The position numbers are program-made. A DNA stretch of 64,000 nt from Candidatus Obscuribacterales bacterium (GTDB lineage Bacteria; Cyanobacteriota; Vampirovibrionia; Obscuribacterales; Obscuribacteraceae). Positions within the stretch are counted from its first letter, which is position 1. Each line of letters opens with the position of its first letter. The stretch lies in NCBI GenBank assembly GCA_965228855.1, contig CBDDIJ010000003.1:224001-288000 (forward strand), in the 5' to 3' direction. Shown here in pieces: positions 39,981 through 45,900 of the stretch.

Positions 39981-42900
39981 CGCGCGGCTCAATTCCGCTG
40001 CTAGCACCGTCGGTAATGGCACTCTGGGGAGCTATCGTTCCTAGCCTCGAATTTTCGTCATTGGTGTCAGCCGTCATTTATTATGATTCCTGGTCGAGTG
40101 GGCGAGCGAAAGCGACGCCTATTAGGCGCGGTCTTTCAAAGATGTTTACTCAGGTCTTGGGGCTACTTTCTCTTAGAGCCTCGAAGTCCGTTCAAAATTA
40201 GATGCAAAAATGTTTCAACCTCAGTGTCGAATACCTTTCGGTCTGGTCGCCCTTCCTGAGGCACTGCTAAGGTTCGATCGTACGGTGGCAGATAGGCTCC
40301 GAGCATCGTTGCAATCACTTCCGTTTGAAGAGTGGTATCGGTGTCCTTTGAAATTTCGCCTTCGCCAAGTGCTGCGTCAAGGAACGACTGAATTACATTT
40401 TTCATTTCGGCGAACTTGTGATGGGCGCGGCTTCGAATTCGTGCGCTTACATAGACCAGTGTGTCAGGTGTGCGCACGCTGCTGGACTCTTCGTACACCG
40501 AGCCGACGAACTTCTTCAATGTGGTTTGTAGCGCTGGAAGGAAATCTGAATCTGTTTTTTCCAAAATGCTACGCATCATTTTAACCATGCTTGCGCAGTG
40601 ACTTTCGCATATCGTGAGAAGGATATCTTCTTTGTTGGGAAACACCGTATATAGTGTCGCCTTGCTCATTGGTACGGCACGAGCGATCTCTTCCATTGTG
40701 GTTTTCTCGAAACCATTTTCGTGAAACAGTTTGCGTGCTGCATCGACAATCTTTTCGATTTTTGCGTCGGCTTTGGAATCGGCCTTTGTTTCGGCTGGGA
40801 CCATTGTTACCTCCGGAGGCAAACGCGCTGCGCTGGGAGCTGGAGTGCGACTCGTCGAGGGACGATGACTCGCGTGGAGCCTCCAGGCAGTTTTCTGACT
40901 TTTACTATAGTAAACGATTGAACGATTTTTGTTTAGTCGTTCAATGTTAAATCGACATAAGTCGCCCAACTTCTCCGCTCTCGTCCGCGCCGACCGCCCG
41001 CTGCCCCCTTGCTCCCCTGCTCCGCTACTCCGCTACTCCGCTACTCCGCTACTGCGCCTATTCTCCTCTCGGTATGTTTAGAAGGGATTTCGTATGCCGC
41101 CTGCGGAATGGGTTCCAGAGGTATTCCTCCCGAAGTATCAAATTCGCCTCGGTCTAATACTGCCAGCGGAATAGTGGAGAGCGGAGAAGGAGTTGCTGGT
41201 GAGCGGAGAAGGAGTGGTGGAGAGGGAGAAGGAGTTGCTGGTGAGTGGAGAAGGAGTGGTGGAGTCCGCGGAGGTAGGGGAGGAAGGGGAGGTACGCGCT
41301 TTTGTCGTTGTGATCGGCGCGTGTCGAAACTGCCAATAAAGAGGATTAGGCAAACAGTTGTCGAGTGATTTCCGCTTTTGGGAATTTGCACGGCGTTTGG
41401 AGTTGAATTCGCTGACTGGCACGGCGCTTTCGGTGTTTTGTAGTTTGGGCGACCAAACCTCGAAAGAACTGGACGCCCATCGAAAACTTGGATATGATTG
41501 ATATTGATACCAATAACAGATGCACAGGACTACCTGCGGTGGTCCACAACAATTGTCTGGCACGAGGCATTTAGACCCTCGTTAATAGGTAGAAATTGAG
41601 CGGAGATTGCACGGCAACCTCCGTTGATGGTGGCGCATTTAGTACCACTACAACGGGTTGTCGGCTTTGCGTTGAGTGGCTGTCCATGCGAATCTTCGTG
41701 AAATCGCTGATAAAAATGCTGTAACTGTTCCAGTGCAGAATTGGCTTGTGGTTCCGGGTTTTTGATGTTTGTCTGGCTGGTCTTCTCTCCGATGGATAGC
41801 GGCTTTCGTCGGACGCTAAAAAATTTTCTTAAAACAAAAATGGGGGACTTCCGCGCGGGGAATTCTGTTGGTATATTAGTAAATGAAGACGGTGAGTGAC
41901 TTGAAACGAAGCCACTTTGAGCCGAGGGGCAATGCGGAAACGGCAGGTTGGCGCCCAACCGGATACGACAGCAAGCAGCCCGCTAAGCGTGAAGGACTAG
42001 CTGAAGCGCTTTGAAATACTGAGCCTGTGCAACAGGCAGCTAGACGGTAGCTTGAGCACCACTGCAACGTAAGTTGGGTGGTGTTTTTGTTTGCGGATCT
42101 TTCTCAAAAAAATATGGTGCCAAGATGTGCAAAAGTCGTTTACCAGCGGCATGTTGTTGGGTATGATAGTTATTGATACCAATAACAGATGCACCGGACT
42201 GCCTGCGGCGGTCCAAAATAATTGTCTGGAACGGGCATTCTAAATCCCGTTGAAATAGGTAGAAATTGAGCGGAGTTTGCACGGCAATCTCTGTTGATAG
42301 TGGCGCATTTAGTACCACTAAGACAGGTTGTCGGCTTTGCGTTGTCTGGCTATTCATGCGACTCTCGAAGATCTGTGGTGTCGAATGTGGTGCGTATTTC
42401 TCCTGCCGGTGCAGTGCTGTTGTTCAAGCGTTCGCTGGCGGTTTGAAAAATATAGAAGCGCATGGATACTCATACTTGGCTTGCTCAAAAAAGTTTTTCA
42501 AAAACAAAAAAGGGGGTCTTCCCATGTGCATGATTCGTTGATATAGTTATAAATGAAGACGGTGAGTGACCTGAAACGAGGTCACGTTGAGCCGAGGGGC
42601 AATGCGGAAACGGCAGGTTGGCGCCCAACCGGATACGACAGCAAGCAGCCCGCTAAACGTGAAGGACTAGCTGAAGCGTTTTGAAATACTGAGCCTGTGC
42701 AACAGGCAGCTAGACAGTAGCTAAAGCACCGCTGCAACGCAAGTTGGGTGGTGTTTTTGTTTTGGAAAGTTTTTCTGAGTCACCGCTGACGGTGCGCGCC
42801 GCCAGGCGTCGCTGCTCCCGTCTCCTGGCTTGCTGAGCGCTTCTTGGCAGGCGAGACTGGATTCACGTGAGAAGGTTCGAGCAGCAATACTGGTCTGTTG

Positions 42901-45900
42901 TTCAATGGATGCGAGAACAACTGCGTTTCCGAAACCCTTATGGATAGCTCTTATACATGGTTCCAGAAAGATTTTCTGAAAACAAAAAAGGGGGTCTTCC
43001 CACACGCATGATTCGTTGATATAGTTATAAATGAAGACGGTGAGCGACTTGAAATGAGGTCGCTTTGAGCCGAGGGGCAATGCGGAAACGGCAGGTTGGC
43101 GCCCAACCGGATACGACAGCAAGCAGCCCGCTTAGCGTGAAGGACTAGCTGAAGCGCTTCGAAATACTGAGCCTGTGCAACAGGCAGCTAGACGGTAGCT
43201 TAAGCACCACGGCAACGCAAGTTGAGTGGTGTTTTTGTTTTGGCAGAGTTTTTTGTTCTGTGGAGTTTTCGTGTCAGCGACATTATTTGTGTCGGCGGAG
43301 TTTTCGTATCCGCGCGGACCATGTTTTGCAGAGTACTTCGTTTCTCAGTACTTATATATAGGAAGACCTTCAATCGCGTTTTTCCTCTAGACGGCCATCT
43401 ACAAGCTCATAAAATTCACTTCGATTTCCATCGCTTGGAGGGTGCTAAGATCCGCGCAGTAAGCCGGTTTTTGCCTCTAATCAGTGGCAACTTTGTATAT
43501 CTGTTTTCTATATTTTTGAGGGTAAATGAATGACGGACAAGCTTCAAGTGAAAGTCGAGCGACTCGCGCACTGCAAAGAACTCCCTCGCTACGCCACCCC
43601 TGGCTCTGCCGGCATGGACCTGACCTTTGCTTCGGAAGAGCCGATCACGGTAGCGCCCGGCAAGCGCGCCAAACTCGCTACCGGTATCAAGCTTGAAATC
43701 CCGTTCGGATACGAAGCGCAGATTCGTCCCCGCTCGGGTCTGGCCGCAAAGGCGGGCATCAGCCTCACGAATTGCGTCGGCACAATCGATAGCGACTACC
43801 GCGGCGAAGTGATGGTTTTGATAATCAATCATGGCGACGAACCTTATACATTCAGTCCAGGTGAGCGTATTGCCCAGATGGTGATCGTGCCGGTTCCGGT
43901 CATCGAACTTGTTCAGGTCGAACAAGTCGCAGACACTGAGCGGGGTGAAGGCGGTTTCGGTTCGACCGGCAAAACTGCTCTTGCCGCCAACGGCGCTTAA
44001 CCACGAGCGATACAAAACGTTGAACTAGTCGCGGTTTGAGTATAGGATCGTTGTTTAACGCCATTTCGGGCGAAAATCAACGAGAGGAATCCAGTCTTGG
44101 CAGACAGGGTGAAGGTCGCAATCGCCGGTATTAACGGCAAAATGGGGCGCGCGAGTGCCAACGCCATACTTGGCGACCCCGGTCTTGAGCTGGTCGGGGC
44201 TTTCGGTCGACCGGGCTCGTCTTACGCCGGCAAAAGCATGGTCGCCGGTTTTTCAACCGAAAACAGCGTGGCGGTTATGGTATGCGACAGTATCGAAGCC
44301 TGTTTCGAGGCGTCGAAGCCGGATGTCCTTCTTGATTTTTCCATCGCCGAACCTGCGGTCAAACACGCGACCTACGCGATCGAAAATGGAGTTCGTCCTG
44401 TCATCGGCGTTTCAGGTGTCGATCCAGCTGATGTGGAAAAACTGCGCGCGCTGGCCGTGGGAAAGAATCTGGGCGCCATGATTGTTCCAAACTTCTCCAT
44501 CGGAGCCGTGCTCATGATGGAGTTTGCCAAGACTGCCGGAAAGCACTTCGGCAATGTTGAAATTGTCGAGATGCACGGTACTAAGAAGCTGGACGCGCCC
44601 TCCGGAACGGCGATGTACACCACGCGGAAGCTCGCGGAAAACGACAGGCAGTTTAATCCTAAGGAAGTTGCGGACAGAGAATTGTTGAAAGGCGCGCGTG
44701 GCGCGGTTACCGATGCCGGCGTTCGCATTCACTCGGTGCGTCTGCCTGGTTTGATTTCTCATCAAGATGTCATCTTTGGTGCCGATGGAGAGCTTCTTTC
44801 CATAAGACATGAGAGTTTCAACACGAATTGCTTCGTCAAGGGAATCATTTTGAGCATCAAGTCAGTGATGGAAATGGATGCTCTTGTTGTCGGTTTAGAA
44901 ACTTTGTTGTGAGTTCGATAGTTGGCTGTAAGAATCTGAATTCATCAGTATTTGCAGAGAGTTTTTATAGTACAAATCTAGTACGAATTTGATTGGTGAA
45001 GGGGTTATCCCGGAGGAACGGAAATGAAAGGCAGAGCGATGCGTGTTGCGATACTCGGAGCGACCGGTCAAGTCGGACGCGAGTTTCTTCGCATTCTCGA
45101 ACAGCGCAACGAAATGGAAATCGGCGAACTACGACTGCTGGCGAGCGCTCGCTCTGCGGGTTCGACAATGGAGTTTCGCGGCAAGAAAGTCGAAGTCGTC
45201 GAAGTGAGTGAGAAAGCATTTGAAGGCGTCGACATAGTTCTCGCCTCTGCCGGTGGTGCAATCAGCAAGCAGTGGGCGCCGGTTGCGGTAAAAGCCGGCT
45301 GCGTGTTTATCGATAATTCGAGCGCCTTCAGAATGGAAGAGGGCGTGCCGCTCGTGGTGCCGGAAGTTAATGGTCATGCGTTGAAAGACCACAAAGGTCT
45401 AATCGCGAATCCTAACTGCTCCACAGCGCAACTTGTGGTCGTTCTTAAAATATTGCACGAACTCGGCGGACTAAAGCGCGTCATAGTTTCGACCTACCAG
45501 TCCGTCAGTGGCGCCGGCAAAGAAGGAATGGATGAGCTCGATCTGCAGACCAAGGCTCTTTGCAAAGACGAACAACATGCTCCCAAAAAGTTTCAAAAAC
45601 AAATTGCCTTCAATCTCATTCCTCATATCGATTCATTTGCCGATGATGGTTACACCAAGGAAGAGCTGAAGGTCGTTAACGAGAGCAGAAAAATTCTTGA
45701 GATTCCAAATCTGCCGGTCGTATGCACTGCAGTCAGAGTGCCTGTTCGCGTAGGTCACAGCGAGTCTGTCCTCGTCGACCTGGAGAAGAAGGTGAGCGTT
45801 GCGCAAGTCCGCGAATCGCTTTCCAATTCGCCGATTGTCGAAGTTTGGGACCAACCGGAAGAAAACATCTATCCTACGCCGCTTGATTGCGCAGGCGAAG

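What a model noticed while it worked through the whole genome (the two positions that open the first line are those of the whole stretch)
41916..43202. The orphan poplar-1 RNA is a multi-copy, tandemly arrayed hallmark RNA of Obscuribacterales
Six full-length copies of the 141-nt poplar-1 RNA motif (known from environmental sequence, host and function unknown) lie in this genome: three in tandem at C3:265916-267202, two at C3:2278454-2278996 and one at C3:433459-433599, all in gene-free spacers and in no fixed orientation to the flanking genes. I read poplar-1 as a stand-alone small RNA gene family that marks Obscuribacterales; its invariant internal-loop words (GGAAAC twice, UGAGCC three times) suggest a protein-binding, sponge-like RNA rather than a cis-regulator. 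This would give the motif an organism, a copy-number pattern and testable partners.
Evidence so far: RF03041 hits of 117-134 bits (cut 110.5), model 1-141 complete (rna.tsv; alignments in call 62). Over the cut-off in 98 of 107 Obscuribacterales genomes, 1-14 matches each, often several on one contig 0.5-1.5 kb apart; 0 of 14 control genomes; 0 of 60 other Cyanobacteriota genomes. Flanks: TetR/MFS and dut; a polyketide cyclase; aspartate ammonia-lyase and a response regulator. The spacers between tandem copies are themselves repeated and hold no conserved ORF. Paper search poplar-1 + RNA motif: 0 papers.
(Added by a program. Inside this text positions count along the whole contig: contig position 224,001 is position 1 of the stretch shown here. 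"Call 12" and the like, gene names such as g00115 and contig names such as C1 are that model's own, and its searches are not shown. The text may have been shortened before it was handed on; [...] marks where a part breaks off. The agent that wrote the report below was given it as the finding of a first reader that could run no searches.)

Follow-up and report, generated by a model that had tools for sequence, protein, structure and literature searches.

The report
Multi-copy folded RNA of Obscuribacterales
A catalogued RNA of unknown job turns out to be a self-standing gene kept in several copies by nearly all members of one order of non-photosynthetic relatives of cyanobacteria, with its own private promoter and a fold that looks built to hold a protein that is none of the usual ones.

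Summary
Confirmed: three full poplar-1 (RF03041) copies lie here, six in the genome; 98 of 107 genomes of the order pass the cut-off (tmRNA: 90) and none of 150 other Cyanobacteriota does. The gene is longer than the Rfam model, about 205-210 nt: a 5' kink-turn hairpin, a two-fold symmetric internal loop, a covarying pseudoknot and a terminator. Each copy has a phased upstream control region found almost nowhere else in this genome. Contigs from RNA libraries of four studies match the copies at 99-100%. Corrections: the 'invariant words' mostly are not invariant; copies are co-oriented in clusters and at an old site before dut; only one of two spacers repeats, and it holds a second candidate RNA. 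The kink-turn is of the type that folds poorly without protein, yet CsrA (5 of 107), stand-alone L7Ae (0 of 107) and clear Hfq are lacking. Best reading (0.45): sibling small RNAs under one dedicated regulator that bind an unidentified protein; function is inferred, not shown. The scan noted the kink-turn and an upstream RNA before on other genomes.

The parts
41745..41877 (+). Upstream control region of copy 1: distal box (about 41745-41770), A-tract, GGGG(T/G)A(C/G)T box starting 41842, -10-like TATATT 41872-41877
   Evidence: promoter function inferred
41884..42092 (+). poplar-1 copy 1, predicted whole RNA (Rfam core 41916-42054)
   Evidence: RNA-library contigs cover 41900-42066
41890..41924 (+). 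5' kink-turn hairpin of copy 1 (its 5' strand lies outside the Rfam model)
41935..41971 (+). P1 with two-fold symmetric internal loop (Y-R-GAAAC-NN-YAG pattern on both strands)
41997..42043 (+). Pseudoknot: P2 loop 41997-42002 pairs with the P3 internal loop 42038-42043
42056..42092 (+). Terminator-like hairpin and U-tract of copy 1
   Evidence: (helix 10); missed by the simple scan
42415..42547 (+). Upstream control region of copy 2 (GGGG box at 42512, TATAGT 42542-42547)
42554..42762 (+). poplar-1 copy 2, predicted whole RNA (Rfam core 42586-42724)
   Evidence: RNA-library contig 42566-42716
42893..43025 (+). Upstream control region of copy 3 (GGGG box at 42990, TATAGT 43020-43025)
43032..43240 (+). 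poplar-1 copy 3, predicted whole RNA (Rfam core 43064-43202)
   Evidence: RNA-library contig 43103-43190
41470..41700 (+). Second repeated element, copy A: promoter-like site 41470-41498 then about 200 nt of conserved, foldable non-coding sequence; candidate second RNA, narrow range
42139..42369 (+). Second repeated element, copy B (87% identical to copy A)
43530..44000 (+). dut (dUTPase), then dapB 44097-44912: marker of the old, widely shared poplar-1 site
40163..40969 (-). TetR-family regulator, followed by an MFS transporter (38389-40077); local flank, not shared by other loci

Best explanation
poplar-1 is a family of sibling small-RNA genes. Each copy is transcribed alone from a sigma70-like -10 element with a weak -35, switched on by a factor that reads a phased set of boxes up to about 140 bp upstream, and ends at an intrinsic terminator, giving a compactly folded RNA of about 205-210 nt. 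The RNA works by its shape, most likely as a ligand for protein (titrating it or scaffolding it): the 5' kink-turn and the symmetric GAAAC loop are the likely docking sites, the latter suited to a homodimer. Output scales with gene dose; copies arise by tandem duplication of the whole unit and genes come to lie between direct repeats. Shown: sequence, covariation, range, promoter conservation, gene order. Weakly shown: presence in RNA libraries. Inferred: start site, activator, protein binding, titration, dose effect. The partner is not identified.
For: All 10 helices covary in 52 diverse copies: 95.6% of cells paired, 46 of 55 pairs with double changes, slid controls 32-44%. Kink-turn: sheared-pair positions 51-52 of 52, 3-nt bulge, G-U at 3b.3n in 52 of 52; McPhee et al. 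(PMC4382518, part 1 of 4 read) class G-U as a poor ion-only folder typical of protein-bound U4. Longest conserved unpaired run is 5 nt, so no pairing seed. GGGG box in 73 of 74 copies, TAnnnT 29-30 nt on in 70 of 73; 90 of 97 in an independent metagenome set, U-run at the 3' end in 101 of 103. A matrix trained on 180 upstream regions from other genomes ranks this genome's six copies 1-5 and 7 genome-wide. Two old subfamilies coexist in one genome, 61-65% identical, against 82-83% to same-site copies of other genera. Eight contig pieces from RNA libraries of four studies match the copies at 99-100%, reaching 42566 (5' hairpin) and 42066 (terminator); a drinking-water preprint lists poplar-1 among RNAs enriched inside cells (passage).
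Against: No partner found: CsrA 5 of 107; L7Ae-family hits 7 of 107, the three translated being the N-domain of an RlmB-type methylase; Hfq weak in 11 of 107 and no hit here; TROVE none here; RRM proteins are in 105 of 107, including genomes without the RNA. Tertiary contacts can also fold a kink-turn without protein. A pseudoknotted multi-helix fold is more ornate than known sponge RNAs. The RNA evidence is contigs from runs chosen because they hold the sequence; strand, ends and level are not shown. Copy number tracks genome size (rho 0.56, kin not independent), which drift would also give. At least two near-complete genomes of the order lack it.
Confidence: 0.45

Rival explanations
1. Abundant structural RNA that folds or assembles without protein, like raiA, EGFOA, ROOL or GOLLD; the P2-loop/P3 pairing could form between molecules, and the subfamilies' different pairing sequences would keep assemblies apart.
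For: Ornate fold and dedicated multi-copy genes; pairing sequences differ between subfamilies yet stay complementary; RNAs under 200 nt form cages, trimers and kink-turn filaments (bioRxiv 10.64898/2026.07.01.735769, passages); no usual protein partner in the order.
Against: G-U at 3b.3n disfavours ion-only folding; covariation cannot tell cis from trans pairing, and cis is geometrically plausible (inference).
Confidence: 0.2
2. Trans-acting ribozyme or small-molecule-binding RNA (ligand store or sensor).
For: Invariant junction bases (A53, G54, G112, A150 in alignment A1) and a pseudoknot as in riboswitches and ribozymes.
Against: No other Rfam family matches, even at E<=10; no regulated gene follows most copies; Weinberg et al. 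note that 3' terminators sit badly with self-cleavage (PMC5737381 part 3 of 7); riboswitch kink-turns have 3n=G; one RNA-library contig runs unbroken across the core.
Confidence: 0.12
3. Base-pairing sibling sRNA (Qrr, LhrC or csRNA type) acting on mRNAs.
For: Same gene plan: several copies, shared activator box, terminator with U-tail.
Against: No conserved single-stranded seed over 5 nt; the P2 loop is tied up in the pseudoknot and is wholly replaced in some subfamilies; Hfq weak or not found in most genomes.
Confidence: 0.1
4. Selfish or mobile unit (MITE, retro-copy, integrase target or cassette site).
For: Up to 14 copies; 386-bp direct repeats at 98.7%; co-oriented arrays with varied genes between; one copy cut by an integrase element.
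Against: Copies carry upstream DNA that an RNA copy would lose; no inverted end in 0 of 320 downstream stretches; 1 truncated copy of 235 distinct hits; no shared transposase, RT or integrase in 57 loci; a fixed old site and two old subfamilies; not in phages or plasmids, the one viral hit looks chimeric.
Confidence: 0.07
5. Cis-regulator (riboswitch or T-box-like attenuator) of the peptidase-dut-dapB-asd-dapA genes.
For: Same-strand position before dut in 21 of 40 loci; kink-turn, pseudoknot and terminator occur in such leaders.
Against: Most copies lie elsewhere; 19 of 40 dut loci have none within the stretch fetched; T-box word in 2 of 52; terminator helix covaries as a fixed hairpin.
Confidence: 0.03

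Closest known systems
poplar-1 RNA motif (Rfam RF03041; origin in Weinberg et al. 2017 is recalled and given by an earlier scan note, its supplement could not be read)
   Same: Full-length match to the model, 129-134 bits.
   Different: The model omits the 5' kink-turn strand, the terminator and (in the alignment shown) the pseudoknot; host order, copy number, promoter and subfamilies were not found in print.
Csr/Rsm sibling sRNAs (RsmX/Y/Z, CsrB/C)
   Same: Multi-copy stand-alone genes, each with a shared upstream activator site and terminator (PMC7911923 passages; here).
   Different: No run of ANGGA hairpin loops (0-3 per RNA, 8 of 52 have none); CsrA in 5 of 107 genomes; complex pseudoknotted fold.
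Orphan structured RNAs with 3' terminators and kink-turns (drum, RAGATH-18, skipping-rope, DUF3800-I)
   Same: Structured, terminator-ended, not 5'-UTR RNAs from the same kind of screen.
   Different: Those sit beside a specific protein gene and their kink-turns fold in ions (3b.3n A.G); poplar-1 has no linked gene and a G-U pair; it is not among the four kink-turns picked from the 224 motifs.
raiA, EGFOA, ROOL, GOLLD, OLE structural RNAs
   Same: Abundant-looking, ornate, function unknown (search listings; passages).
   Different: No sequence or model match; poplar-1 is confined to one order and multi-copy.
U4 snRNA and box C/D kink-turns bound by L7Ae-family proteins
   Same: Standard kink-turn of the poorly ion-folding class.
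   Different: No stand-alone L7Ae protein found in 107 genomes; no variable guide segment.

Membership tests
poplar-1 (RF03041) | Full-length match above the gathering score | tested here: met
   129.3-133.5 bits vs 110.5, positions 1-141
Standard kink-turn | C-stem, 3-nt bulge, tandem G.A/A.G, NC-stem | tested here: met
   columns 7-16 and 40-52 of A1; 51-52 of 52 at the four G/A positions; compensatory changes in both stems
Standard kink-turn | Kinked conformation and L7Ae binding in vitro | not testable with these tools
   needs FRET or gel assay
Sibling sRNAs | Several homologous stand-alone genes per genome with shared promoter element and terminator | tested here: met
Sibling sRNAs | Discrete transcripts with redundant regulatory action | tested here: inconclusive
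   contigs from RNA libraries match three copies; ends, strand and action not shown
Csr/Rsm sponge RNAs | CsrA/RsmA encoded in the host | tested here: not met
   0 in this genome, 5 of 107 in the order
Csr/Rsm sponge RNAs | Many ANGGA motifs in hairpin loops | tested here: not met
   0-3 per RNA
Hfq-dependent base-pairing sRNAs | Conserved single-stranded seed | tested here: not met
   longest conserved unpaired run 5 nt
Hfq-dependent base-pairing sRNAs | Hfq in the host | tested here: inconclusive
   weak hits in 11 of 107; no hit at E<0.1 here; divergent forms may be missed
Bacterial Y RNA | Ro60/TROVE protein in the host | tested here: not met
   0 in this genome; order not scanned
Housekeeping RNAs (6S, SRP, RNase P, tmRNA) in divergent form | The ordinary gene is missing from the host | tested here: not met
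   SRP, RNase P, tmRNA present; 6S only a weak candidate, 28.8 bits
T-box / riboswitch leaders | T-box word and position in 5' leaders of related genes | tested here: not met
   2 of 52
MITE / integrase attachment gene | Inverted ends, or routine truncated copies beside integrases | tested here: not met
   0 of 320; 1 of 235; target duplications not tested
Self-cleaving ribozymes | Cleavage activity | not testable with these tools
   no Rfam ribozyme match

The most novel reading that the evidence does not exclude
poplar-1 is the RNA core of an undescribed, dose-controlled ribonucleoprotein of Obscuribacterales: the sole output of a dedicated transcription factor, read by a kink-turn-binding protein outside the L7Ae family and by a homodimer at its symmetric loop, or polymerising through loop-loop pairing between copies of one subfamily, and performing a housekeeping-level job that this order alone runs on RNA.
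Probability: 0.2. Interest if true: 0.85.

Novelty: new variant of a known kind. Interest (0 to 1): 0.55.

Why it matters
An orphan motif gains a host order, true gene limits, a private promoter and a structural handle, which makes it testable: the kink-turn rule predicts a protein, and none of the usual readers is there. Few bacterial orders are marked by their own multi-copy structured RNA recovered as often as tmRNA. It is also a ready marker for these uncultured drinking-water, sludge and soil bacteria in RNA data. The motif itself is catalogued and no function is shown, which caps the score.

Tried and rejected
CsrA, L7Ae, Hfq, Ro60 and RRM proteins as partner: absent, rare or not discriminating. 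Replacement for tmRNA: ARAGORN found no tmRNA and its relaxed run was noise, but Rfam found one at 137.7 bits. Distant relatives: extended model R1 gave only weak hits outside the order, 2 of 118 class genomes at E 0.025 and 0.043 (not inspected) and 1 of 150 phylum genomes, partial, E 0.0375; one weak Rfam hit examined lies in what reads as coding sequence. Divergent copy or orphan promoter in genomes lacking the RNA: none (two promoter-pattern hits were at control level). A regulon sharing the promoter: none in this genome. Integrase target: the one truncated copy is cut by a 1.8-kb element that also cuts another gene. Likeness of the GGGG box to Tn3-type ends, NtcA/CRP sites, SigB/SigF or sigma54 promoters, and of GAAAC to CRISPR handles, hammerhead, SRP or loop E motifs: all recalled, judged by eye, only the inverted end was tested; none fits well. 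The RNA contigs did not cover the second element, TetR or dut; that is no evidence of silence. Supplement of PMC5737381 could not be read; the word search of its main text returned 0 even for common words, so it says little. Complex prediction was not used: no candidate pair.
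Full report
Observation. Rfam finds three complete poplar-1 matches in the window (41916-42054, 42586-42724, 43064-43202, + strand, 129-134 bits, cut-off 110.5) and six in the genome. Across the order 98 of 107 genomes pass the cut-off and 101 match at E<=0.001, with 537 matches, median 4, two or more in 95. 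For scale, tmRNA passes its cut-off in 90 of the same 107. Outside the order none of 150 phylum genomes passes, and my longer model R1 gave only marginal hits in 2 of 118 class genomes and 1 of 150 phylum genomes. The name of the order rests on record titles: in a pattern scan of all species genomes, cut off at 148 stretches with 80 listed, 54 titles name Obscuribacterales, Obscuribacter or Melainabacteria, 16 are unspecific, and 10 rows from six genomes carry other names. I checked five of those six: four hold 4-8 copies and their hit lists coincide with genomes already counted in the order; the fifth has one copy on a 3.5-kb contig, probably mis-binned. Other phyla are therefore covered only by a truncated scan and 14 controls. 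Five genomes without a match stayed empty on relaxed searches, two of them 92% and 97% complete, so losses are likely real. No copy was found in phage or plasmid collections; a looser pattern gave one viral contig that looks chimeric.

Anatomy. An alignment of 52 diverse copies shows a gene of 202-217 nt as cut. From the 5' end: a kink-turn hairpin; an invariant AG link; P1 with a symmetric internal loop; P2; an A-rich link; P3; a terminator hairpin with U-tract. All ten helices are supported: 95.6% of cells paired, 46 of 55 pairs with double changes, against 32-44% paired when partners are slid (the structure was drawn from these sequences, so the slid control is lenient). The kink-turn has a 3-nt bulge, G/A positions at 51-52 of 52, and compensatory changes in both stems; its 5' strand lies before the Rfam model. 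An earlier scan note reported the same kink-turn on another genome (I had noted it). The pair after the sheared pairs is G-U in 52 of 52. McPhee et al. (PMC4382518, part 1 of 4 read) found G-U a poor folder in ions alone and typical of the protein-bound U4 kink-turn. Huang et al. (PMC8191799, passages) picked four kink-turns from the 224 Weinberg motifs and poplar-1 is not among them. The P2 loop pairs with the P3 internal loop: 6 of 6 pairs show double changes, 95.8% paired. In an independent metagenome set (129 loci, 103 distinct full copies; 13 dropped for failed anchors, 6 for matching the first set) 73 of 84 have a run of five or more Watson-Crick pairs there, against a mean of 63% and a maximum of 75% with shuffled partners. 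Both strands of the P1 loop read Y-R-GAAAC-NN-YAG or close (50 and 46 of 52), each half closed by an R.A and a G-Y pair.

Only the first GAAAC is invariant (52 of 52); the second GGAAAC is in 16 of 52, and the three UGAGCC in 44, 9 and 29 of 52. The longest conserved unpaired run is 5 nt. What is conserved is shape, not a seed or a repeated word.

Promoter. A GGGG(T/G)A(C/G)T box precedes 73 of 74 copies, with TAnnnT 29-30 nt after its first base in 70 of 73, and 90 of 97 in the metagenome set. Further boxes sit at fixed distances, 11, 31 and 86 nt upstream of it (column counts at the box are partly circular because I anchored on it). A matrix trained on 180 upstream regions from other genomes ranks this genome's six copies 1, 2, 3, 4, 5 and 7 over the whole genome. 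So the control region serves poplar-1 and hardly anything else. That a dedicated activator reads it is inference; this is the plan of Rsm sibling RNAs (PMC7911923, passages). I could not name the factor.

Genomic context. In 57 loci the only widely recurring neighbours were dut-dapB and an M16-type peptidase (names other than dut and dapB by eye). Of 40 dut loci that I chose across genera, 21 have a copy within 9 kb upstream, all on the dut strand; 4 of the 19 without come from genomes that lack the RNA, and some stretches were short. The 14 rows labelled as dut-site copies fall on one side of a well-supported branch, with five others (rough bootstrap). This window's copy is 82-83% identical to dut-site copies of other genera but 61-65% to its own genome's other copies: the duplication is old and both kinds are kept. 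In nine clusters that I fetched because they were dense, all 40 copies share their cluster's strand, with kinases, TPR proteins, glycosyltransferases and others between; 14 of 14 multi-copy metagenome loci agree; one opposite pair is. Tandem duplication and recombination between direct repeats explain this (inference). Mobile-element signs are lacking: no inverted end in 320 stretches, one truncated copy among 235.

Expression. Of ten contig pieces from RNA libraries of four studies, eight match the copies at 99-100%, from 42566 in the 5' hairpin to 42066 in the terminator of the respective copies; two are short pieces of other organisms. The runs were chosen for holding the sequence, may contain DNA, and contigs show neither strand nor ends. 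A preprint on drinking water lists poplar-1 among RNAs enriched in the intracellular fraction, with no host named in the passages searched (bioRxiv 10.1101/2025.10.18.683149). So 'no expression data' no longer holds, though the evidence is indirect.

Partners. CsrA is in 5 of 107 genomes. The L7Ae family rings in 7 of 107; the three that I translated are RlmB-type methylases, which this genome also has. Hfq hits are weak, 11 of 107. TROVE is absent here. RRM proteins are nearly universal and do not follow the RNA. SRP, RNase P and tmRNA are present, 6S only as a weak candidate.

Second element. The stretch before copies 1 and 2 (41504-41700, 42172-42369) has its own promoter-like site, folds better than shuffles (z -2.84), matches no Rfam family, occurs in 6 of 8 genomes of this genus and in at least one other genus, and shows 7 of 45 pairs with double changes among 11 close sequences. 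It is a candidate second RNA, possibly the one in an earlier scan note; it is not needed by poplar-1.

Verdict. The likeliest mechanism is protein binding by a folded sibling RNA under a dedicated regulator (0.45), ahead of RNA-only assembly (0.2), catalysis or ligand binding (0.12), base pairing (0.1), mobility (0.07) and cis regulation (0.03). The motif is catalogued. Host, limits, promoter and subfamilies were not found in five paper searches, but the library lacks most subscription papers, and the Weinberg supplement, which may show the pseudoknot and terminator, could not be read (part 3 of 7 of the main text read). raiA, ROOL and GOLLD papers were seen only as search listings.

Noticed in passing
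window 41470-41700 and 42139-42369: Candidate second non-coding RNA with its own promoter-like site, before dut-site poplar-1 copies in this genus and at least one other.
   Followed up: partly
L277 (G071:C8:162500-182499): Tandem array of Ser/Thr kinase genes, most separated by a poplar-1 gene on the opposite strand, about 2.2 kb per unit.
   Followed up: partly
L285 (G076:C1:1021000-1038500): A 1.8-kb tyrosine-integrase-only element in two 98.8% identical copies, one cutting a poplar-1 gene and one cutting a GP88 gene; RHS genes nearby.
   Followed up: partly
L278 (G037:C1:6290000-6309999): Three near-identical poplar-1 units spaced 9.80 and 9.81 kb apart with unrelated gene sets between.
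   Followed up: no
G000:C3:724518-727973 and C3:1529761-1530653: Arrays of about 22 and 5 tRNA calls, some with odd anticodons.
   Followed up: no
L286:1-167: A virus-like contig with a polymerase-like ORF begins with two thirds of a poplar-1 RNA; probably an assembly chimera.
   Followed up: partly
L260, L263, L265: RlmB-type methylases of one genus carry 250-500 residues of low-complexity Arg/Gly/Ser-rich repeats at the N-terminus.
   Followed up: no
window 7829-8038 (-): RRM-domain protein gene, one of six in the genome.
   Followed up: no
window 40998-41053 and 41183-41264: Short tandem repeats (8-nt unit; 42-nt spacing) in the long spacer before the locus.
   Followed up: no
L031:1468-1740 (G000:C2:813651-813889): Weak 6S RNA candidate, 28.8 bits, behind a near-consensus sigma70 promoter.
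   Followed up: partly
L004, L005, L006, L019: Extra stand-alone copies of the terminator hairpin beside poplar-1 genes in some genomes.
   Followed up: no
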